Numbered from the whole stretch's first letter, positions 819 through 62,180 are shown. The stretch: DNA of 63,618 nt, filler included, from Perkinsus chesapeaki ATCC PRA-425 (GCA_013115145.1; 8 parts of 8 records of this genome joined end to end with filler, not necessarily neighbours in it); one strand, 5' to 3'. Made by a program: numbers and translations. Notes: generated by a model from the sequence alone, not told the origin.

Positions 819-821
819 CTC

Positions 822-1326: not shown

Positions 1327-1348
1327 AGTAGGAATCCTACTGTAGGAT
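1327..1348. other. 22-nt double-palindrome footprint, perfect; inferred target AGTAGGAT
   Basis: AGTAGGA-A-TCCTAC-T-GTAGGAT. Confidence 0.85.
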
Positions 1349-1440
1349 TCGCTATCCGAAATTCTACGACTTGAAAAGGTATTGCGTTGTTTTCGTAAAT
1401 ACACTCAAGCTGGTAGTTCAAAACTGCGGAGGAGAGCATC

Positions 1441-1797
1441 ATGCCTCTTCGTCACAGCTGGAGACTGTTCGAGAATATTGTGGGGCCCCATGTGGGCAAC
1501 CAGCAGTTAGCTACAAGCTATGTAGCCATAGCGACAATCAGAGGAATAATCGGACGTTTAGGAACCCTCGATTTGATGCGGAACAGCCATCAATTCAGCT
1601 TCACGATCCCTACGGTGGGGGATGGTAGCCGCAGTGTTACTCAGTTCCAAGAAGAAGTTAGAAAAACCTGCCACGGCCGTTATAGCCTTTTCCTAGAAAA
1701 CTATAGTTATCTGATTTTCGCAACTCCTTCAACCTTGTTAACAGAGGCCGGAGGTAAACGTATAATCCTTGAGGGGAACGAAGCCCAATGCTACTGA
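1441..1797 (+). pseudogene. C-terminal-domain fragment paralogous to the 4051-4818 secreted protein
   Basis: QFSFTIPTVGDGSRSVTQFQEEVRKTC...YLIFATPSTLLTEAGG aligns with QFSFTIYTVKDGSRSISKFQEEVGKVC...YLIFATHSTVLTVAGG. No signal peptide or N-terminal domain. Confidence 0.65.
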
Positions 1798-2118
1798 GCG
1801 ACGCTAAGTTAGCGACGTCAACCATGGTTGAACGTGTATCTGATGTACTACGTGACCTTCATTGAAGTATAAGAATATCATATTTAACTATGGTTGGATA
1901 TAATCTATGCTTTATGATATCGCACAATGATCTAAAATCGTTTTTCGCCATATAATCTGAGCAGCCTAACATATGGCTAAGCACAAACTGCGCTCCATAT
2001 CTTCGACTGAGACCTTCCACATATCTTAGCGACGCTAGTTAGCCTCACTCTGATGGGGTCTTATTCGCGTCCGGTCATACTTGTAGCCTCGGACTTTTCG
2101 CACCTGATGAGATTCGCT

Positions 2119-2140
2119 AGCCGGATTCCGGCTGCCGGAA
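2119..2140. other. 22-nt footprint, perfect; target AGCCGGAA
   Basis: AGCCGGA-T-TCCGGC-T-GCCGGAA. Confidence 0.85.
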
Positions 2141-2640
2141 TTTTCGCGACTGGAGATGATATTGCGTTGATAGTTGCATAAATCACCTACATTACATTAT
2201 GTACTGGTAGTACATTGCGAGGCTATCTGAGTATATGCTACTCTGAGAGACTATGGTTCCTCTCCAATTATAGACGTATGAATCTAAGTGTGATCCATGC
2301 AAATTGTCTCAAACGGTTTGAGTGAAACCCAACTCCCCAAAGCATTGGAAACCAGAAGCGAGGGCGACCGTTGCAATAGTCCTGCGGCAGGACTCCTGTC
2401 ACTGGAGCCGACCATGTAGCTACTGGGTTAGCAGTCTCCCCTGTAAAGGCCTTTAGTAGAGGTATTGTCGACAACGGCTTGATTAACTCCCGGTTCTGAT
2501 AAAAGGGTGGAGCAAATATGAATCACTGATTGGAAATCAGCATTGTTGATGTGGTGTTGGCTCTACACTGTAGAGCACGTGCGACTCGCAAGTTGCAATA
2601 ATCTGATGGACCCCTTGGTGAGTTACATATGACTGGCGCC

Positions 2641-2662
2641 CCATAGTCACTATGGCGTAGTG
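2641..2662. other. 22-nt footprint, 1 mismatch; target CCATAGTG
   Basis: CCATAGT-C-ACTATG-G-CgTAGTG. Confidence 0.7.
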
Positions 2663-2829
2663 CTCTCGGCTCAGATAGCTTTTGTAAGGCACGCGGTCGC
2701 TCTGCATTCCACCACACAAATTTCTCGCACACAAGCTCGTCGCTTCACCTGTGGAACGAGTGCATGGGCTAGTGCCACTGTCCACAACTCTGAATTAAAT
2801 GATATCCTGGTTACCTGCGTGACGCGAGC

Positions 2830-2851
2830 TTCACCGCTGGTGAATCACCAG
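2830..2851. other. 22-nt footprint, 1 mismatch; target TTCACCAG
   Basis: TTCACCg-C-TGGTGA-A-TCACCAG. Confidence 0.7.
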
Positions 2852-2981
2852 CACCGCTGCAGTGTGCCGCATGCCGCGCCGGTAATGCGCGTCCTCCGAC
2901 TTATTGGAAGTGCCCCCCACTAGAGCCATTGATTTTCCCTTGCTCGCCGCCGTTGGGCGCGCGCCGCAAGTGAAGCTTAGC

Positions 2982-3003
2982 TTCAGTCCGACTGAATCAG
3001 TCG
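2982..3003. other. 22-nt footprint, perfect; target TTCAGTCG
   Basis: TTCAGTC-C-GACTGA-A-TCAGTCG, abutting another 7-bp-arm odd palindrome centred at 2978. Confidence 0.85.
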
Positions 3004-4050
3004 CTATGTGTTTGCGTGCCCCTTCCAAGCTGCGGGGGAACTCGCAAAGTAGCCCATTGTTCTTATCGTAGTCCGGCCGTAACGGCCCTAGTGGATCGAA
3101 TTGTTAGTCATTATCAACCTCATTTCCTAATGAATGACTCAAATTCTTATGAAGTTGCCGAGTTGTCACTGGGAAGAACTGTTCTTGAGCCACAAGACGC
3201 TACACCGCGCATGAAGAACGCATGTACACCAACTATGCAAGGAGTCCTTGCCAAGGACCAACTTCAGGGCCTGAAGTTCAGGCTCGGCATCAAAAATCCT
3301 ACAATGCCTATCGCCAGGAAGTAGATGGTTCAGCTTTCTACCCTAAATCTATGCCCCACTATGCGAAGGTCACACGTTTGAACTCCGATCTGAACTTCGG
3401 ACTCTTAATTGCACGCGGGAGCGCCAGGCCATCAGCGTCGTTTCGGTAAGGGCTACCTACGCTCTGGGTCGAGATTGATCACTCTCTCGATATAGTACTA
3501 CTCCTTTCCCCACAACTTATCATGTCCCGAAGAATATCACTATATCCTGGAGGGTTGTCTGATGGATTAAACATCCGCCATCCCCTTGATAGCTATCGAG
3601 CCCGATATCTATCAGCTAAGCAGAGTAATTGTGTTTGCGTACACATAGATTGGTGTAGATCTTAGGTGCAGTTAGTGCGCTGATACCTGTTGTCCCACGG
3701 TCGTAGTATCTCGCTCAAGCTCCTTGGTTGTGTTATCATTAGGAGTTCATCAACTGATACCGCGACACCTACCGAGGAAGCTAAGCCACCGAGAGTAAGC
3801 CTAGTTCACTAAGGCTTAGCTTAGTGACTAAGCTATGGGAGCAATTATGGATAACTCCTCCGGAATCCTACGAATATCTTTTCTTCAGTATTCATTTTTA
3901 CACACACTGTTTTTATACACATTCACAGAGCCTATTCCTAATAGCATAATATGCTAAACATATGCCTCCTGAACTTTCATGACATGCCTTCGACATATTT
4001 TATGTCTCATTTCTCAGTTTCAAATATTTCAGGTTATACCTTTAGCAAAC

Positions 4051-4818
4051 ATGTCCATCTTTCTGACCTGTCTGACCTCTACTCTCCTCCTGAGGTCTGG
4101 CAGTGCCCAACAAGTTGGTAGATATGTCCTGGATACAAAATCTTATCACATGGCCTTCAACATCTATCAGAGGGAGGGGGTGTATTTTCAATTCCAGTGC
4201 AAGGATACCGCAGGGCGGCCTATTGGTGATATGCTCAGCGACGGCCCCTATTATCTTCTTCAAGGCCCCAGACATCGCGACTTCACGATAGATTTTGAAG
4301 ACGCCCACGAAGGTGTAGATCACTGGTACATTGAAATCAGGTTTGGTTGCCACCACGCTATTGTTCCCCAACCAGGCGACCTTTTGAACATCACCTACTT
4401 GACTCCTGATATAATATCTACCGTTTTCTTAGCCAACACTGTAGTACTCAAGAGGGTTGCTCTCGAACTGAGCCCTGGGCCGTTCAGGTTTCCCTACAAG
4501 AACGCATCCAGCTTTGATGGTATTATTGTCGATTACACGGTTGGTCACGATTCTACGGTAGTTATGCAAGTCGTGTGCTCGGGGATCACTACTGATTTCT
4601 GGACTTTTCCTCTGGTTCGTAACGATGATCAATTCAGCTTCACTATCTATACGGTGAAAGATGGTAGCCGCAGTATTAGTAAGTTCCAAGAGGAGGTTGG
4701 AAAAGTCTGCCCCTATGAAACTTTCCCAGAAGACTTCAAGTATCTGATCTTTGCGACCCATTCAACCGTCTTGACTGTGGCCGGAGGTGGCCGTATACCG
4801 CTTGAGAGGAAGAATTAA
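4051..4818 (+). CDS. Intronless secreted orphan protein (lineage-specific family), about 255 aa
   Basis: The track ORF is 3979-4818. The likely start is the ATG at 4051, giving the signal peptide MSIFLTCLTSTLLLRSGSA-QQ. A paralogous fragment lies at 1441. Confidence 0.7.
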   Translation: MSIFLTCLTSTLLLRSGSAQQVGRYVLDTKSYHMAFNIYQREGVYFQFQCKDTAGRPIGDMLSDGPYYLLQGPRHRDFTIDFEDAHEGVDHWYIEIRFGCHHAIVPQPGDLLNITYLTPDIISTVFLANTVVLKRVALELSPGPFRFPYKNASSFDGIIVDYTVGHDSTVVMQVVCSGITTDFWTFPLVRNDDQFSFTIYTVKDGSRSISKFQEEVGKVCPYETFPEDFKYLIFATHSTVLTVAGGGRIPLERKN

Positions 4819-5931
4819 GCCTCGATGCTATTTCGCTACATCATCGACAATGACTGGACATGTATCTGATTCATTGCGTTGTTGCTGGTTTTGCATGCTT
4901 GTCATGGTTGAATCGAGCTATAATCCTATGATCTAGTCCCGGTTAACTGTGATAGAGCCGCATACAGAGATCTCAAATCGCTATCAAATGCAGCTGTCGG
5001 TGCTACTTCACTGAGCTTAGTGCTTCAAGCATCCATAGGTGTTCTTTCACCTATGCAGAGTGATATTCTCTGGTATTCTTCACTAACCATGAGAACGGCA
5101 TCAGTAGTATCAGCTGATCGATTATCTTTCACTGGGCATGGATATTGCGTTGTTACGATGAGCTATCCAGGTTGGAGCTTGCAGAGCCAGGTCGAAAGAA
5201 AGCTGCACAGTCGTATGAAACTATCTGCACGATACTTCTATCACCTATATAGCACCTACAACATAGCTCATCATAACGCACGAAGCTGGTGACCGCTAGC
5301 ATAACGGAATCTCATACTGCATCTGGTTCCGTAAGATTTGTTGCAGGCTCCTTTCAATCTCAAACATCGGAGATGATGGCAATTCGATGCCTAGCGGTAG
5401 CTTTATGTAGTTCAGCTGACATGTCGCTCTCTACAAGAGGCTTCGCATATGGAAATCCAAACATTCTTGATATTCTTGAATTGGAAACGCAACATTTCAC
5501 TCACCACGGAGATATTCATCAATCACACGGACTGCGCTTCAGTAGCACACCTGCCTCTAGGAACTTAATACTGAAGCCTTGTTCGGCGTCAGTGCCCATC
5601 GTGGCCTCGCGCCAGAGGTCGCTTCGCCCGTTGCATACTCGACGCAGGTCCAGCACCTAGTCGAGACATATATCGAAGATGAAGGGGCTCAGGAGGCATT
5701 CCTGGCTCACCTTGAGAGACTCGGATGCGATCGCGCCAAAAATGATAGCTGAGACGCACTGCAGTGCTAGTTCCAGCCGCGTGGACGATGTGAAGTGGAG
5801 GAGCGAGTTTCTATGCAGGAGACGGGAGCAATTAGCGCCATTTTATGTATGCGAGATACTCCTGCTGGGTAATAGTGCGTTACGCACTGTTTTCATTCAC
5901 TTTTTCAACGTGTGTTCAAGACAAGGGGCAT

Positions 5932-5953
5932 CTCACGTTACGTGAGTCACGTA
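5932..5953. other. 22-nt footprint, perfect; target CTCACGTA
   Basis: CTCACGT-T-ACGTGA-G-TCACGTA. Confidence 0.85.
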
Positions 5954-6377
5954 GTGTATTGAAGAGGCTTCTTACCTTGCTAAAGAGAGATCGGTGATCT
6001 TTGAGTTCTTGCTTGCTATGAGCTCCGCCAATTCCAAGAAGCCCCGTGGACCAATACTATTGCTTCCAAGGTCTACCAACTTGATACCCTTCGGGCTTGA
6101 TTGGATTCCCTCGACAAGTCGCAAGACTCCATCGCTTGTTATACAATTCCGCCTACCGAAAGATAGCGCTCGAGTGAATATACGACCATTGGGTGATATG
6201 GCCCAGAATGGTTACGATAACTGCGGAGCAGATGTGATGGAGGTAAACTTTGAAAACTTCACCCACCAAAGGATTAGCGAGATTATCTCACTCTCTCTTA
6301 TCTCTAACCAGTGGGGTATTCCCCACCGGCTACGGAGAATTCAGCAAGGTCCTCGCTTTTATTGAAATAACCGCCCC

Positions 6378-6399
6378 CTTATGGCCCATAAGTTATGGG
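6378..6399. other. 22-nt footprint, perfect; target CTTATGGG
   Basis: CTTATGG-C-CCATAA-G-TTATGGG. Confidence 0.85.
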
Positions 6400-6499
6400 G
6401 GCGCTTATTTTCGTTTATTTTTCCACTGTAGGCATTCTAAACCTCTCAGCTAGCGCTACCTAAGATCCAACGCTTCGAGCGAGGGTAAGTCCTTCAAGG

Positions 6500-8330
6500 C
6501 TTTGGCCAAACACTCCACACCATCATCGCCCAGACCTGAAGAAAACTCCGGTTATTCAGTACGGTCAGCTCCGATGATGCTCGGCCCGAGCAGCTCGGGT
6601 CCACCACGTCCCGAAGCCTCACAGGTTGCCGATAGGTCTAGCCGTTTTATAGACTTAGCGGAGGATCCCAGCCATCGACTAAGGCCTGTCACCCACGCGC
6701 AGCCAAACGTTGCATTGCTGCGGAAAGCAAAGCTTATTAGGGAGCTAGCCTTGGAGTTTGTAGATTGGTTGAGCTCCCACACAGAGACGGGACTGAGAGA
6801 GAATTGCGAAAGGCATCACACCACTATCAGTAGACGGTAAAGCATACTTCAAGGATAATCCTTCGAAAGTGAAAGAGTTGCTCATCTCGAGTAGTGTTAG
6901 CAGCACGTCCGCTTCTACACTTATGGGTATAGGGGGTTGTCTGACCCTGAACAACAGGAAGGTAAATATTCTCCACAATGGCGACACCCTCCAAAACACA
7001 CATGAACAAAGATGACTCACTTTGATACTTCTTGGAGGCCTGCTCTTTGTCTTCGCTGGCTCCAAAGCGTACTCGCTTGCCTAACGAGATACTATACAGC
7101 TCGTACTGCCAAGTTCTGGCCGTGCCTGCATTGGCCTACATTGGCTTACATCTCAATAGACGTCGAGGTCGTTGCGACCGTGCCCATCCTCAAATCAGGA
7201 CGCCTCGCTTTGGCACCTGTAGGAACTATGAATCATCTACTGCGGTCTAGTTATTGGCGCAAAATTAGCCACCGTAAAAGTGTCTTGGCGGAAATTTGAG
7301 CGTTACATGATTCTAGCACATACCAGGTTCTGTTCGACCCGGGATCAACCATGCATGCGGTTTTACCAGACGGCGTTCGACGAATAAAGGTCATCAGACG
7401 AAACTATGCGGCTGACGTTTCATCGCCGCAATGGCAAATTGCGAATTACTCTGCTACTGTTTCACCTTCTGGCACATGACCACCAATAACAATCGATGCT
7501 GCGACGTCTGTTGGCAGCGTCTTGAGCAGTTCAGTGACGCTCGTGAACACAGAATGGACCTGAACGGTTGGGCGGCACGGTTACCGAGTAACGCTTCATT
7601 GAGTCCAGGCATGTGAATAGACCACTCTAAATCAACGAGTTACGGGCTGGGAGCTGAAAGGAACTGCCCTGGATCATGACCTGCTCATCGGAGTCTCCGG
7701 CATTCAAGTTGATGCTCACGCTTGCACTATATACGTGCAGAGCGTCAGCCAACAACGACAACAGCAAACTATCATGCTTGGAAATCCGAGCTCGAGGTGA
7801 AGTATGTACAACCTGCGCTGAATCGATGAGGGCATTGCAGAGGAATCATCATTACGAGCTTTCCCGTCTCCCTGCTGCTGGCCAAGTCGATGCCGTTCAA
7901 CTGCTTTAGCGCAGGAAGCGATCTGACGGCTCGCACGAGATCGAAGGCAGATCTCGGGTTTATCCTGGGGCAGTCTTTGAAGGAAATGCACCTGAATAAC
8001 ATCCCTTTAAACCGAAGTCTTCAGGAAAGACTTCTAGTTTAATTGAAGTTAATGATGGGTTAAACTTTCGGAATGTCATCTCACAGTGAGAGTATGAACT
8101 TGAAAATATTAGGAGATTACTTCGAGCTGTTGGTATGAGCTTTCGACTCTAACAGCATATTACTAATGCTGCTCAATCCTGCGTCAGTTACATAGGGGGC
8201 TCCTTCAAGGCAGATCTTCTCCGAGATGGTTGCGTTCCTGGTCACAAGATGGATAGGGATCTACTACTAGAGAGTAATGTACGTCAAGGTAGTGTGGGAG
8301 CAAAGGCGTCCCTAAAGTTATTGACTACAC
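6500..8330 (+). mobile_element. Heavily decayed LTR retrotransposon gag-protease(-RT) remnant
   Basis: Frame-broken translation gives YQVLFDPGSTMHAV (about 7321-7360, D-[TSP]-G retropepsin motif) and DHDLLIG (about 7670-7691). Weak RT-like text follows. Many stops and frameshifts. Confidence 0.4.
6578..6599. other. 22-nt footprint, perfect; target TGCTCGGG
   Basis: TGCTCGG-C-CCGAGC-A-GCTCGGG. Confidence 0.85.
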
Positions 8331-8429
8331 TAAAGAATGGTGAAAGCTTATTTAATACCGACCAGTAGCCATCATGGCTACCAGATACAAAACGAGTATA
8401 ACAGGTGTGGTTAGTAGAGACCGTGAAAG

Positions 8430-8451
8430 CTCAGCTTAGCTGAGTCAGCAA
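8430..8451. other. 22-nt footprint, 1 mismatch; target CTCAGCTA
   Basis: CTCAGCT-T-AGCTGA-G-TCAGCaA. Confidence 0.7.
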
Positions 8452-9064
8452 CATTACAGGTCATTTACAGTTATTTACATTATTTGTATTTATTTGTATG
8501 AGGTCGGTAAGCGTTATAATTACAACTAGTGCACATCGTAACATACCAGACGAGTCAGGTGAGTGTATCCTATAGACTAGCAAATTGCTAGTTGCAGGAA
8601 TTGGTGATTGTAAACAGTGCCAGGAGTAATATAGGTATCAGTTACAGGTACTATGGGTAGACAGCTGGCAACCTAATGCATACTCACCCGGACCTCAAGA
8701 GGTCTATAAACTTCGCCAACCCGTAGTCCGTGATATTATCTCCAACCAATGACAGAGGAAAAGTAGACTCATCTCCAACGTTCAGTTTTGACCTCAATGC
8801 TGCAGCAAGTGCGAGGCTGAAATAAACTCGTTATTTATGTGTCATAAACCGAGCGTGAGGTCAAGGTCTGTTTATGCGTTGAACTCACCTCAAGTCATTC
8901 CATTCACAGCACTTGTCGAGATTATATACTTCACCATTTTCGATGGATATTTCATTAAACGTCTCCATCTGTGTCTCGTGGTCAGCTAGATGATCAAAGA
9001 GGACTATACTCAGAGATCTTGCTAACCTGACGACATTCATTCAATGCATTGATGCCAGAGGGGC

Positions 9065-12000
9065 TTACGATGGATTTATTAAGCAGTCAATTATATTAAG
9101 GTGTTTTAGACTACACAGAATCATGTCAAAAAATGGCAAAGAACGGCAATCATCATCGAATTGGAGTCGCTGCATTGACAGATTAAAGGTAGGATGCAGG
9201 TGCTGGATGTGTGTTATCAGCTTCTCGTAGAGCCAGATGTCACCTGTCCAGAAATTATCATTTATGGAGCGCCATACAGAGTTTCCGCTGTGAAACTTTG
9301 TCACCTGCAGATAAGTGAACCCTTCCGCTCAACCCCGGTGGAGGTCCAAGGCACACCACACCGCATACCTGATTTAGCAATGTAATAGCACTCTTTCCCG
9401 GTTCATGGAGATGCCATTTCAATATGTGAACTAGTTGCACACATTAAGTTCACAAGGTCATTCCAATACCTTACTTGATCTATTTCGATGCCGTTAACAT
9501 GTCTCAGGCTCATCTGCTGTCTCTGACCGGACAATCTCGATAACGTATGTCCCCATACCTTCTCAGCGTGCTCAACCGAGAGGCTGTTGCCGCGCAGGTC
9601 CACGCTCTCAAGCTTAGGTAGGCGAAGCAAATTCACAAGTACCTGCCCGATGTCCTCTAATATTCGTGAACTCAGAAGAAACACGTCCAGAGTGATGTTC
9701 GGTCGTCCGGCTGTAGGTGGTTTGTGGGCTTCGAAATAAATTGTAAAAAGCCTCACACTTATCATCCACTCGTCCAAGGCTTCGGCTCCAACGTTGTGCT
9801 CTAGCCACCGGCTTCGGTGCCTGCACACCAATTAATCGGACGAGGAGGAGCTTACTCGTATACGTGAAGCCACAAGAATCTAATCTATTGAGGAGAATTG
9901 CGAAAGTGAATATACGGTGACCACGTGGAGCAGTCTTACATCGTCGACTCCCATGCTCCTGTTCTTGACAGCAGCGGATCTTCTCGTACACACCTGCCGT
10001 AGCATCCTATATTCGGCAAAGAAAGGGCTATAGCAGTTGAAATCCATACGAAACTGTGGCACATATTCCATGGCATAAGACGAGACAGTGCGAACTTCAA
10101 TAGTCCTGCGATGTAGGATACCGACAGAGGTGCGGAGACAGGAGAAAAGCCTACTTCGCAAGGTCGCAGTTGCAAAGGTTAACGGCCTTGAGGTCTTGGT
10201 AGGAGCATAGGTCAAGAGACAAGTTAAGGCCTCCAACAACCACCCGCGGCGGAATCTTCACGCTCATCTGAAAAATCGTCGGGCTGCTTCGTCTCATCTC
10301 GACATCAGATTTCACTTTTTCAACTTTGCCACTTGAGATTATAACTTCCAATTTATCTTTGCTGAGCATTTCAATAACTTCAGACTTGCTATACATGTTT
10401 CTGCGGCCATCTGCGTCGATTACTATGAGACATCTGAATGGTCGTCTCGGAGTGCATAACAACGCCAAAATCTGATGAGGCAAAGACATAGACCCACACT
10501 CGTGAATAGGTTCTGTTAGTAAGATAGACTATACCACGACCGACAAAGCCAAGGGCAGCTGCAGCTACCTTCCGCAGGCTGATCAAGTGCTTGTCGTGCC
10601 ATCCTCGTATTCGCGGTAGATACAGACGTTCCAGGCAGAAACCCGACTTGCTAGACATTACTCGCTCTTCGAGCAGTCCAATCGTATCGTCGGGGACTAA
10701 AATGCTACTTTCTGCAGGTCTCTTGGAGACTTCGGTGTTCCGATTTCAACACAGGAAAGATTATCTTACAAAGGGATAGTCCTGCAATCCTGTTGGAGGT
10801 CTCTCCGCAGAGGTATAGTTGTTCAATGATTGATTGTGCTATCGGATGGGCAATGACGAATGCCATTTTGCATCCCTGAACTCGATGTACCTCTTCGCTC
10901 TGCTTCAGGATGGTCGTCAGCCTATTTTCCGACCCTGAAAATCCATATTCTGGAGCAACACGTAAACAAGGAGCGTTCATACTCACCGCATCCTGTAAAC
11001 CATAAAACGACAAGGACGCCTTCACTCCGAGCGAGCTGGAGCCACATCAGCAACAGATCTACTCGCACGAAGTCTGGGCCGATGGTGACGTCGAAACAGA
11101 ATGAGCCGCTATCATGCTGACAGAATATCGTTATCATTTCACAGAAGAGTGAGCGTGATGGGTCATCGTGATAAAGCCATGATCATCTTTCTTGAGAATG
11201 CTATAGCTCCTACGCTACACTCATCAGTGCCGCACCCACTTGAAGTGAAATGTTGGGGATGGCAAGGATAAAATACTCGAGATTAATGACGTCTCGGGTG
11301 ACTTCGCTAACTTCGTCGTGTGCTTTAGGCGGAGGTATCTGCAAGAATACACTAAAGTGAGATTTCACTAGTAGCGATATTCGGCGAGTGACTGTTCGCG
11401 GATGTGCTGCAAACGCCTTGGAGCTCGAAATACCAAGGAGCTTGCCACGCACTTCGTTGAGTAGCCTCAGGTATGGCATGCTATCCATGAGAGCTGCAAT
11501 GAAGGTCCATGATGAATCAAGCGGATCACGGAGGTGGGAGTTCTGGCTCGTTAACGGAAAATTGATGTAGCTTATATCTGACGATTGAGGCGATCATGAT
11601 CATCAGGACCCCGGATATCTAGGGTATCATAAATCAGCAAAATGATCCACTCACGATACGAGACTTCACACACCGTGTTGCAGAACAGTATTGTTCCTAG
11701 TTTTTTCATCTCCATAGACTTACGGCAAATATCAAGCACACGAGCTGGGCATCTGGCAGCTACGAGGGAGTCCCATAGGGCGGGTCCAAGATCGGGGACA
11801 CCTGGTAGAAAGCTCTCAGCGAAGCTTGCTGTCCTGCACGCAAGAACAGAATCTTCAGGCCAAAGGCTTCAGCTACTAAGCCGCCTGCTTAAAGCAGGGC
11901 AACACACATAGCTGTACAAACACGTGGAAGGGTCAGCTTCATCAGACGATGAACGAACACTATCAATCGCACTTGTGTTCAATCATCGGACTTCAGTGAC

Positions 12001-13531
12001 TGTAGCGTCGCCACTGGCGAGTCTCTCCTGCCGAGTGGTTACCTGGATGAATGGAGAGCTTTATCTCGTGAAGGCTCTCGCACTGACTCAAGCTTCTTAG
12101 CGCTTTCAGAGCTGACCAGTACACCAATGGGTGATGGCGTGGAGCGTGATCACGTATAATCTGATATTGTCGTTCCCCAAAGCGACGTCCATCAGACGTC
12201 CAGAGCGGCCTGCTGAGAATCGTACTGAGGAATCGTCGTCAAGCGCAATATCGAGTCGGGTGATATCCGACAGTTTCATACTCCCAACGATAAGCGCGAA
12301 AACGGCGAACTCCGCAGGCGATTGTCCTGCTGACATAGCCAGAGAGACCTGAGAGAACTCAGGTCAACTCAGGTGACTAACCCTGCTTAATATTAGAGTT
12401 GATAATTCGCTCGATTGAGTAAGCGAATCAAAAGTGATGTTGGTAGACACATGACAAGCTCGTTAGCTAGTGGTCACTTTGTTCGTGACGTATCTCATGA
12501 GTTTCACACTGTGAACGTTGACGTAACTTACCGAAGGAGATAGTCTCATGTTACTCAATGAATATGCGGCTTCACCGAGGACGATAGTAGGAAAGTGATG
12601 CACGATGATCAATGCGACGCTTTCTAATGTCTCCCTGAAGTAGTCCTATTGAGCATGCGAGCGGGGATCTGGAATAGATCACTGCAATGAGGGTTGAACA
12701 AAAAGGAAGCGGGTTTGGCCAACAGACTGCATATACAAGAAATGCTGCCAGACAGCTGGGAACGTTTCAGGGAAAGGTGAGTGTCGACCTCTGTAGCCCA
12801 CAGTGTAAGGGAAGAGCTAGCTCCTGCAGTTCTACTGAATCAGCGTCAGCTAGCGCTTGCACAAATGAGACCACGAAGTCGTCAGTCCACGGCAGCTCGG
12901 CCAGCGAGAGCCTCCGGAGGGTTCGCAAATGTCCACAGCTGATGTGCCTGTTAAGTTTTTGTTGGTACAGTAGGATCCAAGTTACTTTATGGTGAGCGCA
13001 CAAATCGATGTTGTGACTGCTCCATTATAGGATACGTCTAATTCTATCAAAGATGTCCCTCGGAAGTAGCCAAGAAGAAATGCAAGCTCCTCACTAGAAA
13101 GTAGGCTTCCTGAGATAAACTCAGTAAGACTTTCGTGCGTGCGTGTGCGAATTTGTACTCGTCAGATTTAGTTTGGCAGCCGGTGAACCTCTTAATTGCT
13201 TCAAATCTAACAGGGTGCCAAATCCAGGCCTTTTTCGACGACCAATGCAGTTGACGTATCGAACTTGGCTTGCCGTACACGCCTCTCCCAACTCAAAAGC
13301 CGCCTCGACGCCGATCTACAGGAGAGAACTTACTCGAGGAATACGGCCCAAGGGTTGACTGGTGGTCGAGACTGGTACTTCGAGTCTCACGAAACTCAGA
13401 GTGGCGCATGAATGATTCTGGATTGAGCACTTACGTTGTTCAGTCGAAAATCTAGCTCGATCAGAGAGGAGTTCCGGGGGAGTAAACTTGAGAGGATGTG
13501 AGCGCCGAACGCCTAACAGCAGATTGTCCAA
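9065..13531 (-). CDS. Multi-exon leucine-rich-repeat protein (RNI-like); exon structure and ends approximate
   Basis: LxxLxLxxN motifs in separate minus-strand exons: LIELDVSYN (about 13030-13060), LRRLSLAEL...LQELAL (12767-13003), LKAVNLCNCDL (10151-10489), LESVDLRGNSL (9403-9831), LKHLNIIDC (9065-9304). Confidence 0.55.
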
Positions 13532-24546: not shown

Positions 24547-24568
24547 CCGTCGTGACGACGCCGTCGTC
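24547..24568. other. 22-nt footprint, 1 mismatch at the second centre; target CCGTCGTC
   Basis: CCGTCGT-G-ACGACG-c-CGTCGTC. Confidence 0.7.
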
Positions 24569-24627
24569 GACAGCCCATCGGGGAACAGCATCACAGGTCG
24601 ACTCGACCTGTGAGAGCTCATGCTGGG

Positions 24628-24649
24628 GGAAGCTGAGCTTCCGAAGCTC
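24628..24649. other. 22-nt footprint, perfect; target GGAAGCTC
   Basis: GGAAGCT-G-AGCTTC-C-GAAGCTC. Confidence 0.85.
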
Positions 24650-28772: not shown

Positions 28773-28774
28773 GG

Positions 28775-46313: not shown

Positions 46314-46761
46314 TACTAGTGAAAAATTAGCGTATTACTCTAATAACATAACCATAACATATCACCACCTTACGTACATCTAAAGACCGTTTCAATATGT
46401 ACGCATGCACATGACCTAACCATATACTTGACCTAAAGATACCTTTAGCAATCCTAAACCAGGATACATATCTTATAACATACAGTAACCACCTCGCCAC
46501 TTTCACTTTACCCGACAACAACCTTCTACGCTAAAATTCTCCTCGAGCAGTAGATGTAAATCTCGCTCGCCCTAAATTAATCAGTGGTTGATGGATGAAA
46601 TGAATGCGCGTTAAGGGAATAATGAAGGTTATTGGTGGGCAATTTATTGAGCTAGCTTGTACTAGCTTAATAATAGCATATAGCGTCGCTTCGCTCATCG
46701 CTCCTCCTATTTTGGAGACTTCTTGAATCACAACGAATAAGGCAAATTGAGCCTAAAAGGG

Positions 46762-49657: not shown

Positions 49658-49679
49658 CACTCAAGTTGAGTGACTCAAC
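49658..49679. other. 22-nt footprint, perfect; target CACTCAAC
   Basis: CACTCAA-G-TTGAGT-G-ACTCAAC. Confidence 0.85.
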
Positions 49680-49699
49680 ATCAATTAGACTTCCCGTCA

Positions 49700-51322: not shown

Positions 51323-53139
51323 GTTGTGTTATATAATACTTCCTTGCCGTCTTGCGATTTCACCTACACTCGCAGATTCCTGCTACGCTGACCAAGAAAA
51401 GTGAGGGCAAGCAAACTTCTCCCACAGGTCGCAGTGCCTCATCGTGGCGTGGGGGCTACTGGATGGTGACTTGCAACAACCCGCGGCCTATTTAAGAAGT
51501 CTCTTGAAAGAAGCTTCATTGAGCCTTTTAACGGTGCAACGGCCGCATCTTGTTTGGAGGGGTTTTTAAATACCTGTTTACGAACCCCAAGGTTGCTTCT
51601 TCAGGCCTGTAGCTTTTAGGGTTCAATGACGGACTCTTCTTTTTATAAAGCTGCATCAAAGAAGCGAGAACAACAGCTAGTCCCTAGCCGATTTGAGACT
51701 TCTAAAAGTTCGTACTTCTTGAAACTGCGTGTAGGCAGCTTGACTTCGTCATGAGAAGGTTAGGAGGGACTTGCTAAGTGTGAGGCCATGCTAAAGCGCC
51801 GAGCATGCCCCGGCTCGAGCTTACCGGTCTTCCATCTGGAGAAGTTCACCGAAAACTAGAAAGTTAATAAATGTCGAGTCCCGTCCGCGCCCATGATGAT
51901 GCGCGGATTCCAATCCTAGAAAATACTTTCGAACCGAAACTTGAGATGTTTATGCTCCTGGCAGGCTCGAAAGAACTACTTAGGCGCGGAAGTTCCAAAG
52001 AGAAGCAACAAATTGAAATCGACTTTGCCTTTTCGAGGAACATACCAGCCACGATTCGTGGCCCACGAATGTTCTCTTAAATAATATGATCAGTAACACT
52101 TGATCTTTCGCAGAGGCATCTGAAATAGATCTGTTGCTTGAATAGCACAGATCACTAAGCAGATTACAGACCACTGGAACCCAATAATCAGAACTGAGTC
52201 TCATATTACATTGAGCAAATGTAAGAGACGAGTTTTGATTGCGAGTCGCAATTTGCGGCTCATAATTGATTTGGCTCGCGGCGTCCGCCTGTCGTCGGTG
52301 GACTCTCACCGTGGGAGTGCCGTCTGTGTTGATTTCCAACGTGGCTCGACTCTTGGGCGAGAAGCCCACAAGATAAATATATCGATGTCGCCTGCTAAAA
52401 ACAACTCGGTGATGTTCAGACTGAGACTAAGCCTAACGAAAATTGCTCATCAATGTTTCAGCGTATAGTGAATGTTAGAAGTTGAGTACAACTTGTTGTA
52501 CTGGCAGTAGGCTGCCAGGCTCCTTCGACGCCTACGCGATGCACGGGAAGTCTGTTGGACTCCTGTAACTGGCGTTGGCCTGAGTAATAAAACAAAATAT
52601 CCATCGGCGTACACACAATCGAAAGATAAGGCGGACGCTTTAGACACCAATTATGCGGATAACTTATTTGATTAAGCATGGAGCGATGGCAGTTCAAAGT
52701 CTCCAATGGAGAACTGATATAACGACTCTCCATATCAGTTTCCAGTCTATTATAGGCTGTAATTTACAGCTTCATAGATTGCAGTTTCAGTTAACCTCTA
52801 GGAGACATACACTACTCTACTATTACGTTCCCCAAGCGATATAGACTAGTCTGTGAAGCGCTTGAAGTTTTCCGTCTTGCTGTACTGAAATAAACGCAAG
52901 TCGATAAGCTTGGTGAGATAGATCAAATAGCTAATGCTGTCTTAAAAAGATAATCTCGATAAAGGCATATATTAGGCCGTTCAATGAGATAGTCCTGGCT
53001 ACAGCCGATATCACAGCTTCGTCTAAGATATGAGCTGATATATGCTCTTCGGTGACTTGTGAGTGTCAAAGCCCCGACAAATCTGAGAAGAATCTATAGC
53101 TGAATAACCCTCACATTCGGGCAAACCCTACTTACTCCT

Positions 53140-56656: not shown

Positions 56657-56678
56657 GTGGCGACTCGCTACTGGCGAG
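56657..56678. other. 22-nt footprint, 1 mismatch in the middle copy; target GTGGCGAG
   Basis: GTGGCGA-C-TCGCtA-C-TGGCGAG. Confidence 0.75.
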
Positions 56679-56801
56679 AGCTAGGCTACAGCTAGGCTTC
56701 TAGCATAAGCTGCGTCTAACTCACTCGCAAGTTGTCTTTGTGATCTAGCTCGTTCCGTCTGCTCATTCTTTCTCTCCCCGAGCTAGAAATTTGAAAGAAG
56801 C

Positions 56802-56823
56802 AGCCTTCCGAAGGCTGCCTTCG
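56802..56823. other. 22-nt footprint, perfect; target AGCCTTCG
   Basis: AGCCTTC-C-GAAGGC-T-GCCTTCG. Confidence 0.85.
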
Positions 56824-57551
56824 TATTCAGTAACTCGTCAACCTTTTGCATCAAGCTCTGCGTTCTCAGTCTTTAAAACTTAGAACAATTCGATTTACAC
56901 CTAGACTACCCGATCATCGGGCCCTCCTATTTTAACCCTTTTGACCGATAAGCATATCGCTGTAATTCCACTGAGACTATATTATATATTTCTTCCCCGA
57001 GCCGCAAGTCAGAAGATGCATCACTTTGACGGTTCACACTGTGCGCCTCACAGTCAGCGTCGATGAAGCGTAATAATGTCAATCATCCAAGGAAGACTAG
57101 TGGTTATCATGTTGGACCCACGAGTATTGTCCGAGATCAGAGTGTGAGGGTACATTAAATCACCCTCCCCCAGTCAGGTTTGCTCGATACAATGGCAATC
57201 ATCCACAAGATGTTAATGACTAGCCTACGCCTCATGTATATCATCCAAGCCTCCAGTCTTGGTATCTTTCAGAGCAAGAATGGGTAGTGCTAAAGCTATT
57301 CGCGCGAGTTATGCAGAGAATCTCAGGCACACCCCGTCCAATGAATATCCTGGTAAATAGAAGTACGTGATCTAGAGAGAATCCGTGCTGTGTTAGGTTC
57401 CTACGAAAAGCCTGAAGGACATTGCACCCTCGACCCAGCCACGCAGAGGGTCGTAGGGTGTAAATGTGCCGAGGGTGTAGATTTCGCCCACAAAATGGTA
57501 GGCCGCACTAGTGTGGAACTCTACAGCAGTCCAGCGAGTAGTTTCCTAGTG

Positions 57552-57623
57552 TTTACTATTTTCTTTACTATTGTCTTTACTATTTTCTTTACTATTTCCT
57601 TTACTATTTTCTTTACTATTTGC
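57552..57623 (+). repeat. 12-bp minisatellite TTTACTATT[T/G][T/C/G]C, 6 units
   Basis: Six consecutive units plus a partial one near 57629. It would read FTIF/FTIV/FTIS if coding. Confidence 0.92.
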
Positions 57624-58195
57624 AAGTGTTTACTATTCTAACCTCAGGACCTTGTTGGCCAGCTCTGGGTGGTATGTGCAAATTTCTGCGAATCAGCTTC
57701 ATCGTGCCCCCCTACACCAGTGGGCCGCAAGATGTGTTTGGCCAAAAGATGTGTGATTAACTGTGAGCAATCGGTAAGGCAGGCGGGATACCATTCGTCA
57801 CGTCGCTAACTCGCAACTGATTGATTTCGTATTTAGATGTGTCCCGATGGAGCTTCCTGCGAGGACGTCATAAAAGGTAAATCAGTGTGCTTATTCAAAG
57901 CTTAGCATGGCTGAGGATGGCAAACCATAACTGCTTAATACATCTCGTTAGTGAAGGATACCCTCCCTAGTGGAGCTCTGCCAAAGTACTCTGTCGGTGT
58001 TAGTAACACTAGCTTCAAATATTCATCTCAATACTGTATGTGGCATCCATAAGAGCCAGCGTGTGTCTGGTTGATCAAGTCACTGATTCTCAACCAGACA
58101 GAGTATAGTTAGTAGTACTCGGTTAATTAATCTTACTGTGCTTGTCCCGCTGCGACACTTTGTTTCATATGGCGGTTTGTGGTCCACCGTCTGAG

Positions 58196-58217
58196 CTGGT
58201 CATTGACCAGTGGTCAA
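58196..58217. other. 22-nt footprint, perfect; target CTGGTCAA
   Basis: CTGGTCA-T-TGACCA-G-TGGTCAA. Confidence 0.85.
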
Positions 58218-59071
58218 CAAGCGAGCTTTTCGCATGATGATGGTTAGCGGAATGAGTGTGCGAATGTAGTGTTTGTGAAATCCTGAGAAACAATCGGGGG
58301 ACTATGAATGTCCGACAGTAGACAACACACAAGGTTAAACGTCACACAAGGAGACAGGACAGAATTGCGTCAGCTATGGACAATAGATTAGCTCGCGTTC
58401 AAACCTAGATATAAATAGATAAGAGCTATAGCTCACATATCTTGCTATACGCACGGCTCGTTACCGGGCTGAACGTTCAAAGCTTGAAGAAAACGGAATG
58501 TTTTCGGCTTAGACGGTATTAAACGGCTATGAGCTGATAAACCGATCTAACCACCGTCATGTTAATTCAGTGATTCTGAATGGCGAATAGCTGATACGGA
58601 TCCAGCGTCTGAGTCAGTGCCGTCATTTTGGTGGATGAGGGTAGGAAGCCCCATAGGACAGTCGGTATGTGACACTTACTATGTGTGAACCCCTACGCCA
58701 GTAGGGTCTGTAGTGGAAAGCTACAGTAGTACCGTGACAGTACTAATACTTTAAGACGAGTGTGGCGGGAAACCACGGAGCCTCAGTGAATAGTCCTTGT
58801 TTTCAGTAAACTTGCTGGCCAGGACTCAATAGCTTGAGGAAGTTGTGTAGTAACTGCGCTGTAGTTGCTTATTCATCTCCTTCCATTATTTCCTTTTTTT
58901 TCTCTCTCCTTGACAGTCGTGGGAAGTCTCTCGGAGGCGTTATATTGGCTATGGAATGCTGACAAAATTCGGACAGAGGTTATGATGTCAGTTGTGTATT
59001 TTTTTTCCTATGGTGATTGACCGTTTGATTGAAGCCGTTCTTCCCCCAACGATTCCCATCGCTACAGCAGT

Positions 59072-59240: not shown

Positions 59241-59308
59241 TAATCAGGGATCGAACCGGCAGCCTTTAATAGAACATCATGACATCCTAACGTTCACACC
59301 ATGTCAGC
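59241..59308 (-). pseudogene. Decayed tRNA-like sequence (tRNA pseudogene or SINE head)
   Basis: Minus strand reads GCTGACATGGTGTGAACGTTAGG...AAGGCTGCCGGTTCGATCCCTG, i.e. an A-box-like then B-box motif at tRNA spacing. Stems are imperfect. Confidence 0.3.
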
Positions 59309-59357
59309 TTCCAACTTACGAAATAGTAATGAAAGATTTAAGTTTCGCAGCAGCAAA

Positions 59358-59566
59358 GTGTACGAAACCTGAATGTGTACGACTTGATAGTGTACGGATA
59401 TTCGGTGTACGGGTTTTTTGTGTACGGGTTTTATGTGTACGAATTTTTTGTGTACGGGTATTTGCGTAACGATGTACGGATCCGAGGGGTGTACGAGTAT
59501 TCAGTATACGGGTGGTGAACGAAGTGAAAGTGTACGAGTTTTCGGTGTACGAGACATGATACACCC
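59358..59566 (+). repeat. 15-bp-period TGTACG array ending in ACACCC (MULE/Phantom-like subterminal repeats)
   Basis: TGTACG at 59359, 59376, 59391, 59406, 59421, 59436, 59451, 59473, 59490, 59531 and 59546. Confidence 0.8.
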
Positions 59567-60090
59567 GATAATAGATAGGATAAGTAACCTTGAAATAAGC
59601 CGAATGTTGATTATCCGATTGATGCGCGCGGCGGTGAGTATCCCTATGATACTCGCGCTGGCCAGGAAAGACAGCAACCTTGGATCCATGGGTTGTGTCC
59701 CTGGTCGTAGCCCGTAGCGGGAGGCTTGAGTCTGAGATATTCTATTCCTAGTCTTCCTAGCACGAACTTTCCTAATAGCATCCGTGTCACGGTTACGTGG
59801 CACTTCAGTAGACTTTCCCGATCTGGTAACGACTATTCCTTACTAGAAGAACACAAAGTTTGAGCCAGTTGATATATATCGACAAACCGTAGCGACAACC
59901 CTTTCCTCAATGACTCAAAAACCCTGAACTATAAGGGCTGGCAAACTGCAGCAAATGATCCTGCTCAGTGAAGTGCCAACTATGCACACAAACCATGGCA
60001 TGACACAGCGGACTCTACTATCTATACCACCCAAAGCAGTATAGATCCCTACGAACCTATCTAGATTGCTTATTGCTGTACGGTTCTAGA

Positions 60091-60112
60091 ATCTAGATTC
60101 TAGATTCTAGAA
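60091..60112. other. 22-nt footprint, perfect; target ATCTAGAA, inside a 63-nt perfect palindrome
   Basis: ATCTAGA-T-TCTAGA-T-TCTAGAA. Confidence 0.75.
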
Positions 60113-60334
60113 CCGTACAGCAATAAGCAGTAAAGCTCCAGAACAGTTCGGCACAACAGGCTTGTGACAAGGAACCAACCGCGCAACCATGTGCATACGT
60201 ACGCACGCATGCGCCACCATATGTCACTGTCGGATTAACCATACTAATAGTAACAGAGAATCCTTCAACGCGCAGTACGAATGCGCGCATTGAGTGGAAT
60301 ATGCGGAGCGAAGAGCATGATGTTTGGTAGACTT

Positions 60335-60636
60335 TGGTACGACGTTTTCAAGCATAATCCGACAACGAAAGATAATCTTGAAGGCATGTACGAATCGAAA
60401 TGTGCATGTACGAAGCCCATATGGATGAAACGAGCAGATTTAGAGCGAAAATGGAAGAAACGGCGTGGACGAAAGAAGCATGGGGGAAAAGCGCGTGGGT
60501 GAACTGCAAGTGGACGAAGTGAGCTGGAGGAAACGCGCATGGATGAAAAGAGCTGGACGAATCCGTGCGTGGACGAAACAATCTTGGAGGGAACGTACCG
60601 TGGACTAAACAACACTGGAGGAATGGCAACACCCCC
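60335..60636 (+). repeat. About 15-bp-period TGGAYGAA array ending in ACACCCCC
   Basis: TGG[A/G]NGAA-like units at 60422, 60452, 60466, 60481, 60496, 60511, 60525, 60540, 60554, 60570, 60585, 60601 and 60616. Confidence 0.8.
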
Positions 60637-60653
60637 GAATAGGAGCGAACGAG

Positions 60654-60675
60654 CTGACTGACAGCCAGTGACTGT
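60654..60675. other. 22-nt footprint, 1 mismatch; target CTGACTGT confirmed by the empty site at 62266-62273
   Basis: CTGACTG-A-CAGcCA-G-TGACTGT. Confidence 0.9.
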
Positions 60676-60779
60676 GTACGTGTTTCGAGCAATCGAGTTG
60701 AGTGTGAACGTGATTAATGGAGATTAAACATTAAGTGTACGTGTTTTATGTGTACCAATTGTTTACATCCTCTTCGAGA

Positions 60780-62180
60780 AGATGGATGGCAAGTATCTCA
60801 ACTACTGGTCAGAAGGCCGTGCACTAAGCGAGTTCGTGCGGTAGCGCGGGTTCGAGACTGAATCGTGACACCGTTGCGCGCGGTTTGTGCGTGCGTGCTG
60901 TCGGCTTCGTGTGGTGCAAGTATTCATTCTCGCCAGTTCTGCTGAACTGGGAATTCGTATGTTGGGTATGAAGTGTTTACCGTATCTTTAGCAGTCATAC
61001 GGTTTACTATCGGTACTGGAGTATGCTAGCGGTTAGTATCGGTTCCATTAGACTGTTAATACGCTACGGTAACCATATATCGGTCGATTGGCTTTGGATT
61101 TGGGTTCACTAGTAGTTATGATCGTATCTGGATCTCATATATTGAGCATAACGAATGAACAGACCTTAGCTGTTGCTGTACAGTCGCAAGGGGTTGTCAT
61201 ATGGCCAATGGCAATCAGGTTGTCCTTCTGTTCAAGGTTAAGAATAAAGTGGAGATTTTTCCGCGTCGCCGCGACGCGACGCCGTCGCGTTCCTCGTGAT
61301 GAATCCTTGGGTTTATCATTGAGCAAGTTACGTGTAACGATCATTCACGCGCACTCGTTGAAAGAGAATGCTAATGAAGACCCTATCACCTATCTGAATA
61401 GCTTGAGTGAAATCGCTAAAACTCTACCTGGTAGAGTTCACCATCGCTAACTGGTAGAGTCTACCAGTTAGCGATGGTGAACGCCGAAAGCAGTTCCTTT
61501 AAGGGTTGACTCCAGGCCTGATGGGAAAACTCCGAGCATCTTATGGGCCACGGCTATATTGGAAGTCGCTGGAGAAGATTGCTGACAGCGCTTCCTATTA
61601 CAAAGCCGATGAGGGGATAGACCTCAAATACCACTAGGAAGACCAGGAAAGGGATTCCCTCAACCAGGACCACAAGTATCTAGCTCTCCGTCAAAACCTC
61701 CGGCATCTTCGGCGTCAGCTGGTGAGAGCAAAAGCTTAACATGGTCGAGCGGGGCGCCCAGATGCTATTTATGTCAACAACTTGGTCATCTACAAAGTGA
61801 TTGTCCTCTAAGAAAGACAACAAGAAATCCGAAGGATGGTGAGTCTAAAGACCGAACCAAAGGATCTACTGCTGAAGCTAAGCATGGAATTGTGACCGTT
61901 GAGATCGGTGCCAATGCTGCTGAAGCTGAAGAGAAGCATCCACACTATACTCGGTTAGGAAGTGTGATACTGTTCCCGAGATAATATGTGACATCGGGCA
62001 ATCAGGAACATATGATCAGAAGGTGTTAGTAACACCGTGTTACTAGACACTGGTGCTGGTTGCTCGCTGATTGGAGCAGAATATGCTTACCAGTTGATGA
62101 AGGAAGGTCGAGCCTTGGTGCTGACTCAGCACCAAGGCACTGCTGAGAACCCCCCCAGGTTGTGCGCCTGGGATGGTAAC
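60780..62180 (+). mobile_element. Decayed LTR retrotransposon gag-protease fragment
   Basis: CCHC zinc knuckle CYLCQQLGHLQSDC (61763-61804) and retropepsin VLLDTGAGCSLIG (Asp codon 62046). Frameshifts present. Confidence 0.85.
62022..62043. other. 22-nt footprint, perfect; target GGTGTTAC, frameshifts the retroelement protease
   Basis: GGTGTTA-G-TAACAC-C-GTGTTAC. Confidence 0.9.

What the first reader, a model, noticed from the sequence alone, without database searches (positions are those of the whole stretch)
1327..62043. Stereotyped 22-nt double-palindrome scars (+14 nt) throughout the window: a uniform excision footprint of a hairpin-forming 8-bp-TSD transposon
SEEN: 12 perfect copies (starts 1327, 2119, 2982, 5932, 6378, 6578, 24628, 49658, 56802, 58196, 60091, 62022) and 6 one-mismatch copies (2641, 2830, 8430, 24547, 56657, 60654) on five contigs, plus 2-mismatch candidates at 19726 and 53810. 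They share no sequence but have one geometry: 1234567-8'-7'6'5'4'3'2'-1'-2345678 (prime = complement), i.e. two 1-nt-centred palindromes with 7-bp arms and centres 7 nt apart. Fourteen positions are constrained, so the chance expectation is about 6e4 x 4^-14, or roughly 2e-4 perfect copies per window. ESTABLISHED: hAT transposases (Hermes, Ac, Tam3) make 8-bp TSDs, nick one nucleotide into the flank and leave hairpins on the flanking DNA, and their footprints contain palindromes centred on the complement of the element-adjacent base. The MULE Muta1 also forms flank hairpins. INFERENCE: if both flank hairpins open to give 3' tails 8'..1' and 1..8 and these anneal, the product is exactly this 22-mer, with both centres complemented and a net +14 nt. 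Footprints in plants and yeast are usually heterogeneous. One dominant, fully templated outcome at about one per 2-3 kb of non-genic DNA suggests heavy past cut-and-paste activity repaired mainly by annealing (MMEJ/alt-EJ) rather than classical NHEJ. I know of no description of this as a genome-wide signature in this lineage, but cannot check the literature.
Basis: partly seen in the sequence, partly recalled or inferred. Interest (0 to 1): 0.88.

Follow-up and report, generated by a model that had tools for sequence, protein, structure and literature searches.

The report
Uniform transposon exit scars in Perkinsus
The DNA of this shellfish parasite carries dozens of 22-letter double palindromes that each add exactly 14 letters to an 8-letter site, and they are most likely the healed wounds left when a cut-and-paste (probably hAT-type) jumping gene left the site, so the genome likely keeps a readable record of past jumps.

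Summary
Observation confirmed and extended. The window (Perkinsus chesapeaki by protein match) holds 15 perfect 22-mers (0 in 40 simulations) and a tail of decayed copies. Spacing 7 and an 8-bp site are the only enriched geometry. Related repeat copies differ by exactly 14 nt at four sites, and contigs from two studies carry the scars, so they are real insertions. Four longer variants keep the same 8-bp duplication with complemented centres and join at 2-5 nt microhomologies; one was checked and its relatives lack the predicted 37 nt. That fits two flank hairpins, not template switching. Sites prefer nTCnnGAn, which fits hAT (nTnnnnAn). Not found: the element, an occupied site or a transposase; no genome was held. 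A Mutator-like repeat is an alternative maker. P. marinus keeps Ku70, Ku80 and Lig4, so loss of classical end joining is not the explanation. Hairpin footprints are known; one dominant, fully templated outcome at this density was not found in ten paper searches. The scan reported the same scar in four other Perkinsus windows. New variant of a known kind, interest 0.5.

The parts
1327..1348 (.). perfect 22-nt scar, single-copy DNA
   Evidence: spanned without gaps by contigs of both studies
2119..2140 (.). perfect 22-nt scar
2982..3003 (.). perfect 22-nt scar inside a multi-copy repeat (2858-3768); other copies lack exactly 14 nt
   Evidence: table 4 (14 left out at 2983 in runs X2, X4, X5; not listed in X1)
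3807..3833 (.). long-arm variant, same 8-bp duplication, predicted +19, 3-nt microhomology
   Evidence: spanned by contigs of both studies; empty allele not seen
5932..5953 (.). perfect 22-nt scar
6378..6399 (.). perfect 22-nt scar
6578..6599 (.). perfect 22-nt scar
2308..17879 (.). one-substitution scars on contig 1 starting at 2308, 2379, 2641, 2830, 3942, 8430, 11877, 17858 (range is only their span)
311..318 (.). empty 8-bp site in an LTR retroelement end; another copy carries the exact +14 scar here
   Evidence: table 4 (14 letters put in behind 311, all four runs); sequence
24547..24649 (.). one-substitution scar (24547) and perfect scar (24628)
49658..49978 (.). perfect scar (49658) and one-substitution scar (49957)
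52048..52770 (.). perfect scar (52048) and one-substitution scars (52238, 52749)
56657..58686 (.). perfect scars (56802, 58196) and one-substitution scars (56657, 58665)
60059..60112 (.). compound scar: long hairpin arm (31 nt) plus the 22-mer at 60091; a related copy lacks 46 nt
   Evidence: table 5 (60059 to 60106, run X4 only); parse ambiguous
60654..60675 (.). one-substitution scar in a high-copy repeat end
   Evidence: the paralogue in the window lacks exactly these 14 nt
62266..62273 (-). empty 8-bp site paralogous to the 60654 scar
61263..61289 (.). long-arm variant, predicted +19, 5-nt microhomology
   Evidence: empty allele not among the rows shown
61422..61466 (.). long-arm variant with arms of 9 and 23 nt, predicted +37, 3-nt microhomology; related copies lack 37 nt
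   Evidence: table 5 (61422 to 61460, skips 37, runs X2, X3, X4)
62022..62043 (.). perfect scar just before the aspartic-protease DTG motif of an LTR retroelement; related copies lack 14 nt
   Evidence: table 4 (14 left out at 62023, four runs)
62118..62147 (.). long-arm variant, predicted +22, 2-nt microhomology
   Evidence: one search shows gaps at 62125-62140 in related copies (12 letters in the rows shown), total not readable
59358..59565 (.). array of 15-bp-period subterminal-type repeats and a probable element end: candidate maker, link untested
   Evidence: very high depth
60637..60770 (.). second end of the same high-copy repeat family; target duplication unknown
   Evidence: (loose end at 60771)
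62170..62305 (.). third end of that family, inserted in the retroelement and cut by the contig end; target duplication unknown
   Evidence: (loose end at 62169)

Best explanation
The 22-mers are +14-nt insertions at 8-bp sites and are most likely excision footprints of a cut-and-paste transposon, probably hAT-type, that seals both flanks as hairpins. Inferred steps: (1) insertion duplicates 8 bp (X1-X8) at sites that favour nTCnnGAn; (2) excision drops the base next to each element end and joins the two flank strands, so each hairpin tip is the complement of that base; (3) host enzymes would open both hairpins 8 or more nt from the tip on the 3' side, giving long 3' tails; (4) the tails carry X8'..X1' and X1..X8, a built-in 8-nt match, anneal there, lose any flaps, and two 7-nt gaps are filled, giving the 22-mer whatever the exact nick position; (5) less often the tails meet at a chance 2-5 nt microhomology further out, giving the +19, +22 and +37 variants. 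Shown: geometry, net gain, variants, target bias, decay series. Inferred: the element, its family, the enzymes.
For: Geometry: 15 perfect vs 0 simulated; spacing 7 only; in a general scan over duplication lengths 5-12, the excess at spacings of 7 or more is at length 8 (19 sites; 0 with spacing 6 or more in 12 simulations). Exact 14-nt difference at four paralogous pairs: 60654, 2982 and 311, 62022. Direction: at 62022 the short form is the common one and the scar shifts frame between gag and the protease motif. Four long-arm variants keep both complemented centres and the 8-bp repeat; the +37 one has two inverted copies of the site taken from opposite flanks, and its relatives skip 37 nt as predicted. 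Target bias in 62 half-sites from 31 sites: T at position 2 in 28 (p=0.001, predicted beforehand), C at position 3 in 29 (p=6e-5, found afterwards). Literature: Ac/Ds footprints are centred on the complement of the base next to the element, with arms up to 20 nt and microhomology in 85-100% of yeast and Arabidopsis cases (PMC5873905); Hermes makes flank hairpins and prefers nTnnnnAn (PMC6900584, PMC10368747); hobo makes 8-bp duplications in 1196 of 1198 sites (PMC3276498). Not an artefact: all 15 sites with at most one broken pair in 1-12500 are spanned without gaps by contigs of both studies.
Against: No occupied site: a scan for 8-bp repeats around inverted ends gave only short chance-like hits, mostly in AT-rich DNA. 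No hAT, MULE or other transposase family among 335 ORFs scanned (ORFs of 55-119 aa in 28773-43500 and three ORFs running into separators were not scanned whole). No paper seen places a hAT element in Perkinsus. About 30 well-kept scars against no element in 63 kb is an odd ratio. The motif also matches the P-element motif GTCCGGAC. The compound site 60059-60112 and a 36-letter palindromic insert in a paralogue of 61065-61069 do not parse cleanly by the 8-bp rule. P. marinus has Ku70, Ku80 and Lig4, so the bias to annealing has no known cause. Footprints with large deletions cannot be seen by these scans, so the share of the +14 outcome among all repairs is unknown.
Confidence: 0.72

Rival explanations
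1. Same hairpin-and-anneal mechanism, but the maker is a Mutator-like (or another hAT-related, such as P-like) element, for example the high-copy repeat with 15-bp-period subterminal repeats whose ends lie in this window.
For: Three ends of such a repeat are present and far above single-copy depth. Muta1 has 12-bp subterminal repeats with 3-4 bp linkers and forms flank hairpins (PMC5225508 section 7, PMC5499845 section 12). The site motif matches the P-element motif. Merlin (8-bp duplications in some families) and Dada are described in P. marinus.
Against: Muta1 makes 8- or 9-bp duplications (21 vs 39), shows no sequence preference and excises precisely in about 90% of cases; here no 9-bp class is enriched and there is a preference. 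One scar lies inside that repeat itself. Its duplication length is unknown. Dada duplications are 6-7 bp at tRNA genes. Drosophila P does not make flank hairpins (recalled).
Confidence: 0.14
2. No lasting element: a hit-and-run or domesticated hAT-like enzyme (compare Kat1 of Kluyveromyces, seen only as a reference title) or a host-driven eviction makes an 8-nt staggered lesion and flank hairpins, so scars pile up while occupied sites stay rare or absent.
For: About 30 well-kept and many more decayed scars but no occupied site in the window; scars hit retroelements and break their frames.
Against: A small mobile family hopping for a long time gives the same ratio, since scars accumulate and elements do not; short Illumina-type contigs break at repeats and hide occupied sites. 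The duplication needs a staggered cut plus fill-in, which is what insertion does.
Confidence: 0.08
3. Short-range template switching or polymerase theta fold-back synthesis copies 8 nt of the opposite strand and returns.
For: The simple 22-mer can formally be written as one inverted copy of the site; P. marinus is scored positive for the POLA/POLQ group.
Against: Fixed length with no neighbours at spacings 5, 6, 8, 9; strict centre rule; palindromic target bias; the +37 variant needs inverted copies from both flanks, three switches at least.
Confidence: 0.05
4. Assembly or library artefact.
For: Fold-back chimeras are a known artefact (recalled); run X1 and sample S2 are flagged as possible sources of the window.
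Against: Present at single-copy depth in contigs of two studies, with no short allele listed at single-copy sites; scars show a decay series; related copies differ in both directions (311 vs 2982). Only contigs, not raw reads, were available.
Confidence: 0.01

Closest known systems
Ac/Ds (hAT) excision footprints in maize, Arabidopsis, S. cerevisiae and Candida albicans (PMC5873905, passages)
   Same: Palindromic P-nucleotides centred on the complement of the base next to the element; microhomology at the joint; arms up to about 20 nt in yeast.
   Different: There the footprints are varied (28 types in 128 Candida clones) and mostly short. Here one fully templated +14 outcome dominates what can be detected, short forms are near background, and the scars are fixed natural features at up to about 1.5 per kb.
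Hermes and hobo (hAT) target choice and chemistry (PMC10368747, PMC6900584, PMC3276498, passages)
   Same: 8-bp duplication of near-fixed length, nTnnnnAn preference, hairpin on the flank.
   Different: Here C3/G6 is as strong as T2/A7 (hobo: GTNCGNAC); no element or transposase was found.
Muta1 (MULE) of Aedes aegypti (PMC5499845, PMC5225508, passages and sections)
   Same: Flank hairpins; ends with subterminal repeats of about 15-bp period, like a repeat in this window.
   Different: 8- or 9-bp duplications, no target preference, mostly precise excision.
V(D)J coding-joint P nucleotides (RAG; PMC6900584, passages)
   Same: Hairpin on the flank, opened off-centre by the host.
   Different: Programmed, opened near the tip, diversity is the point; no target duplication to anneal.

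Membership tests
hAT excision footprint | 8-bp target duplication of fixed length | tested here: met
   Read from the scars, not from an element: length 8 is the only enriched class; paralogues reduce to one 8-mer
hAT excision footprint | Palindromes centred on the complement of the element-adjacent base on both flanks | tested here: met
   33 of 36 centres at sites chosen on inner pairs only; also in 4 long variants
hAT excision footprint | Target preference nTnnnnAn (Hermes type) | tested here: met
   28 of 62 half-sites, p=0.001
hAT excision footprint | An element with short terminal inverted repeats flanked by the 8-bp duplication | tested here: inconclusive
   None in the window; contigs are short and the genome is not held
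hAT excision footprint | A hAT transposase (BED finger, DDE core, dimerisation domain) in the genome | not testable with these tools
   None among 335 window ORFs or in a motif scan; rest of the genome not searchable
Muta1-type MULE footprint | Mix of 8- and 9-bp duplications, no target preference | tested here: not met
   No 9-bp class; clear preference; Muta1 data
Muta1-type MULE footprint | Element with long ends made of subterminal tandem repeats | tested here: inconclusive
   Three such ends present; duplication and link to scars unknown
P superfamily | 8-bp duplication with GTCCGGAC motif | tested here: met
   nTCnnGAn agrees at the four informative positions
P superfamily | Footprints keep pieces of the element ends, no flank hairpin (recalled) | tested here: not met
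   Scars share no sequence and are fully copied from the flanks
Dada | 6-7 bp duplication inside small RNA genes | tested here: not met
   8-bp, unrelated sites; no Rfam match in the window
Repair in lineages that lost classical NHEJ | Ku70, Ku80 and Lig4 absent | tested here: not met
   All three scored present in P. marinus (PMC6635534 Table S1); P. chesapeaki itself not tested

The most novel reading that the evidence does not exclude
Perkinsus cannot open DNA hairpins at the tip, so every exit of a hAT-like element is healed through the duplication itself into one fixed scar, although Ku and Lig4 are present; and the element is a hit-and-run or host-evicted one that leaves far more scars than copies. 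The genome would then hold a datable map of many thousands of past jumps, and the process would be a steady frameshift mutagen of retroelements.
Probability: 0.2. Interest if true: 0.8.

Novelty: new variant of a known kind. Interest (0 to 1): 0.5.

Why it matters
Excision footprints are normally too varied to recognise once the element is gone. Here they have one sequence-independent signature that can be found by a 14-constraint scan, gives back the 8-bp target, and can be aged by comparing its three copies. That would allow counting and dating transposition in a natural genome without the element, give presence/absence markers for parasite isolates, and report on how an alveolate opens hairpins and joins breaks, which bears on the reported odd integration of foreign DNA in P. 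marinus (PMC8062965, passages).

Tried and rejected
No whole genome held, so no genome-wide spacing test or transposase search. Rfam: 0 matches. Pfam on 335 ORFs: no DNA transposase; recalled hAT/MULE/P protein motifs gave only scattered chance hits. Occupied-site scan: nothing convincing. The 935-bp element with 99-nt inverted ends at 25514-26448 sits in TA, not an 8-bp repeat: rejected as maker. Short classical footprints: at length 8, spacing 1 has 5 hits vs 1.9 simulated and spacing 3 has 2 vs 0.08, nearly all in the AT-rich contig zone; direct repeats at period 8 are 10 vs 9.0 while period 14 has 33 vs 8.9: no clear class of short or two-copy footprints. Searches for more Perkinsus DNA in metagenome and viral contigs found nothing. 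No RNA holder listed. Paper searches for this scar or for hAT/NHEJ in Perkinsus found no description; the library lacks most subscription papers, and a draft-genome paper and the Hermes 2018 paper were not held; one paper look-up timed out. Ascot-1, Yu 2004 and Lazarow 2012 were seen only as cited, so a published +14 footprint as a minor class cannot be excluded. Earlier scan notes gave no Perkinsus element.


Full report
Source. The window is eight contigs joined by artificial separators. A LicD-family ORF matches a Perkinsus chesapeaki protein at 100% over 70% of the query, on a contig of 24,348 bases, the length of contig 1; the acyl-CoA ligase has Perkinsus best hits. No whole genome was held.

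Observation. All 18 listed copies are there, and 15 perfect 22-mers exist, three more than reported. Classes by broken pairs are 15, 12, 12, 28 and 53 for 0 to 4, against simulated means of 0, 0.03, 0.5, 4.8 and 29 (40 runs), so there is a long decay series and the process is old as well as recent. Among pairs of 1-nt-centred palindromes with arms of 7 or more, spacing 7 holds 15; spacings 1-6 and 8-10 hold none; even-centred palindromes show no peak. The centre rule holds when not selected for: 33 of 36 centres are the complement of the far base. Of 31 hits with at most one substitution, none lies in the 19.2-kb AT-rich zone (p=1e-5), 14 lie in 1-9000 and 2 in the gene-bearing 9001-24348.

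Real and derived. Contigs of coded runs from two studies span all 15 sites with at most one broken pair in 1-12500 without gaps (X1 and sample S2 are flagged as possible sources, the two samples are nearly identical, and only contigs were available). Four paralogous pairs differ by exactly 14 nt. The 60654 scar has an empty twin inside the window. Other copies of the repeat round 2982 lack 14 nt (three runs of one study). Other copies of the retroelement at 62022 lack 14 nt (four runs). At 311 the window has the empty site and another copy carries 14 extra letters that build the exact 22-mer (four runs). At 62022 the short form has most of the depth and the scar sits between the gag zinc knuckle and the protease DTG motif, in different frames, so the long form is the derived one.

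The variants decide the mechanism. I scanned for the general hairpin footprint: seven bases of a site, the complement of the eighth, any stretch fully explained by the two palindrome arms, the complement of the first base, then bases 2-8, for site lengths 5 to 12. At length 8 there are 15 hits at spacing 7 and four at spacings 12, 12, 15 and 30 (3814/3826, 61270/61282, 62125/62140, 61429/61459), with arm overlaps of 3, 5, 2 and 3 nt; 12 simulations gave none at spacing 6 or more. Other lengths are near their nulls, apart from single hits at spacing 9 (lengths 5 and 6) and one at length 10, spacing 30, which by arm length I infer to be the compound site near 60098. The spacing-30 variant predicts +37, and related copies skip 37 nt there (runs X2, X3, X4). 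It holds inverted copies of both the left and the right flank, which one template switch cannot give but two opened hairpins do. For the +22 variant the relatives show gaps at the right place but the total cannot be read; for the two +19 variants no empty allele is among the rows shown. The site 60059-60112 differs from a relative by 46 nt (X4 only) and looks like two events; a 36-letter palindromic insert in a relative of 61065-61069 does not parse by the 8-bp rule. These two stay unexplained in detail.

Target choice. The 8-mers of 31 sites (25 with at most one broken pair, four long variants, the compound site and 311; 60084 and 60091 left out as parts of the compound site), read on both strands, give T at position 2 in 28 of 62 (background 0.26, p=0.001) and C at position 3 in 29 of 62 (p=6e-5, noticed after the fact): nTCnnGAn. 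A palindromic bias points to a dimeric enzyme. Hermes prefers nTnnnnAn (PMC10368747, passages); hobo GTNCGNAC and P GTCCGGAC, both with 8-bp duplications (PMC3276498, passages).

Mechanism. Best reading: a hairpin-forming cut-and-paste element, probably hAT, inserted and left. Flank hairpins for Hermes and RAG are described in PMC6900584 (passages); footprints centred on the complement of the adjacent base, with microhomology, in PMC5873905 (passages); the 1-nt offset of the first nick is recalled. If both hairpins are opened 8 or more nt past the tip, the duplication supplies an 8-nt match and the product is the 22-mer whatever the nick positions, which explains the uniformity; rarer joints at chance microhomologies give the long variants. 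Short tip-opened footprints are not clearly above background, but footprints with large deletions are invisible to these scans; some of the lone long palindromes (24602, 56617, 8373) may be such cases.

What is missing. No occupied site and no transposase family among 335 ORFs. A high-copy repeat with 15-bp-period subterminal repeats has three ends in the window and resembles the Muta1 end design (PMC5225508 section 7), but Muta1 makes 8- or 9-bp duplications, has no preference and mostly excises precisely (PMC5499845 passages and section 12), and the duplication of this repeat is unknown. Merlin and Dada are reported from P. marinus (PMC8101967, PMC3706591, passages); Dada does not fit. Artemis/Pso2 is not in that table and could not be tested.

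Novelty. Hairpin footprints are known. Ten paper searches showed no account of a single dominant, fully templated footprint as a natural genomic signature, or of this feature in Perkinsus, but key older papers were not readable. The scan's own notes report the same scar in four other Perkinsus windows; these are unchecked and are not counted as support. Verdict: real; works like a hAT footprint; family membership of the maker not shown; new variant of a known kind; interest 0.5.

Noticed in passing
window 25514-26448: 935-bp element with 99-nt inverted ends (94% complementary) beginning and ending in TA; looks like a Tc1/mariner-type non-autonomous element inserted in a zinc-knuckle-bearing remnant.
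   Followed up: partly
window 59358-59565, 60637-60770, 62170-62305: Ends of a high-copy repeat family with 15-bp-period repeats, like foldback-type Mutator ends; a 671-bp piece with a 5-letter overlap is inserted in it.
   Followed up: partly
window 28773-48000: AT-rich zone (GC 0.30-0.37 over most of it) with GC skew up to +0.55 at 36-42 kb, holding tandem long-chain acyl-CoA ligase genes and no scars.
   Followed up: partly
window 1-1008 and 2858-3768: 3' end of an LTR retroelement (purine tract, 169-bp TG...CA repeat at 840-1008) and a roughly 900-bp multi-copy repeat with many different flanks at 3767/3768.
   Followed up: partly
window 61065-61069: A related copy carries a 36-letter insert with three overlapping palindromes that does not fit the 8-bp rule.
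   Followed up: no
window 24602, 56617, 8373, 8584, 36153 (centres): Lone 1-nt-centred palindromes with arms of 8-12 and no partner: possibly one-sided footprints.
   Followed up: partly
GC-balanced parts of the window: Direct repeats of 6 or more bases are about twice the null at periods 10, 17, 18, 27, 31 and 36; cause not examined.
   Followed up: no
window 14747-19715 and 21029-24106: Two tandem LicD/fukutin-family genes, then CFAP77 and PACRG pieces.
   Followed up: no
window 54481-55889: Whole contig is an open reverse-transcriptase frame without scars.
   Followed up: no
window 24124-24170: Hairpin with 22-nt arms (91% complementary) and a 3-nt centre near the contig end.
   Followed up: no
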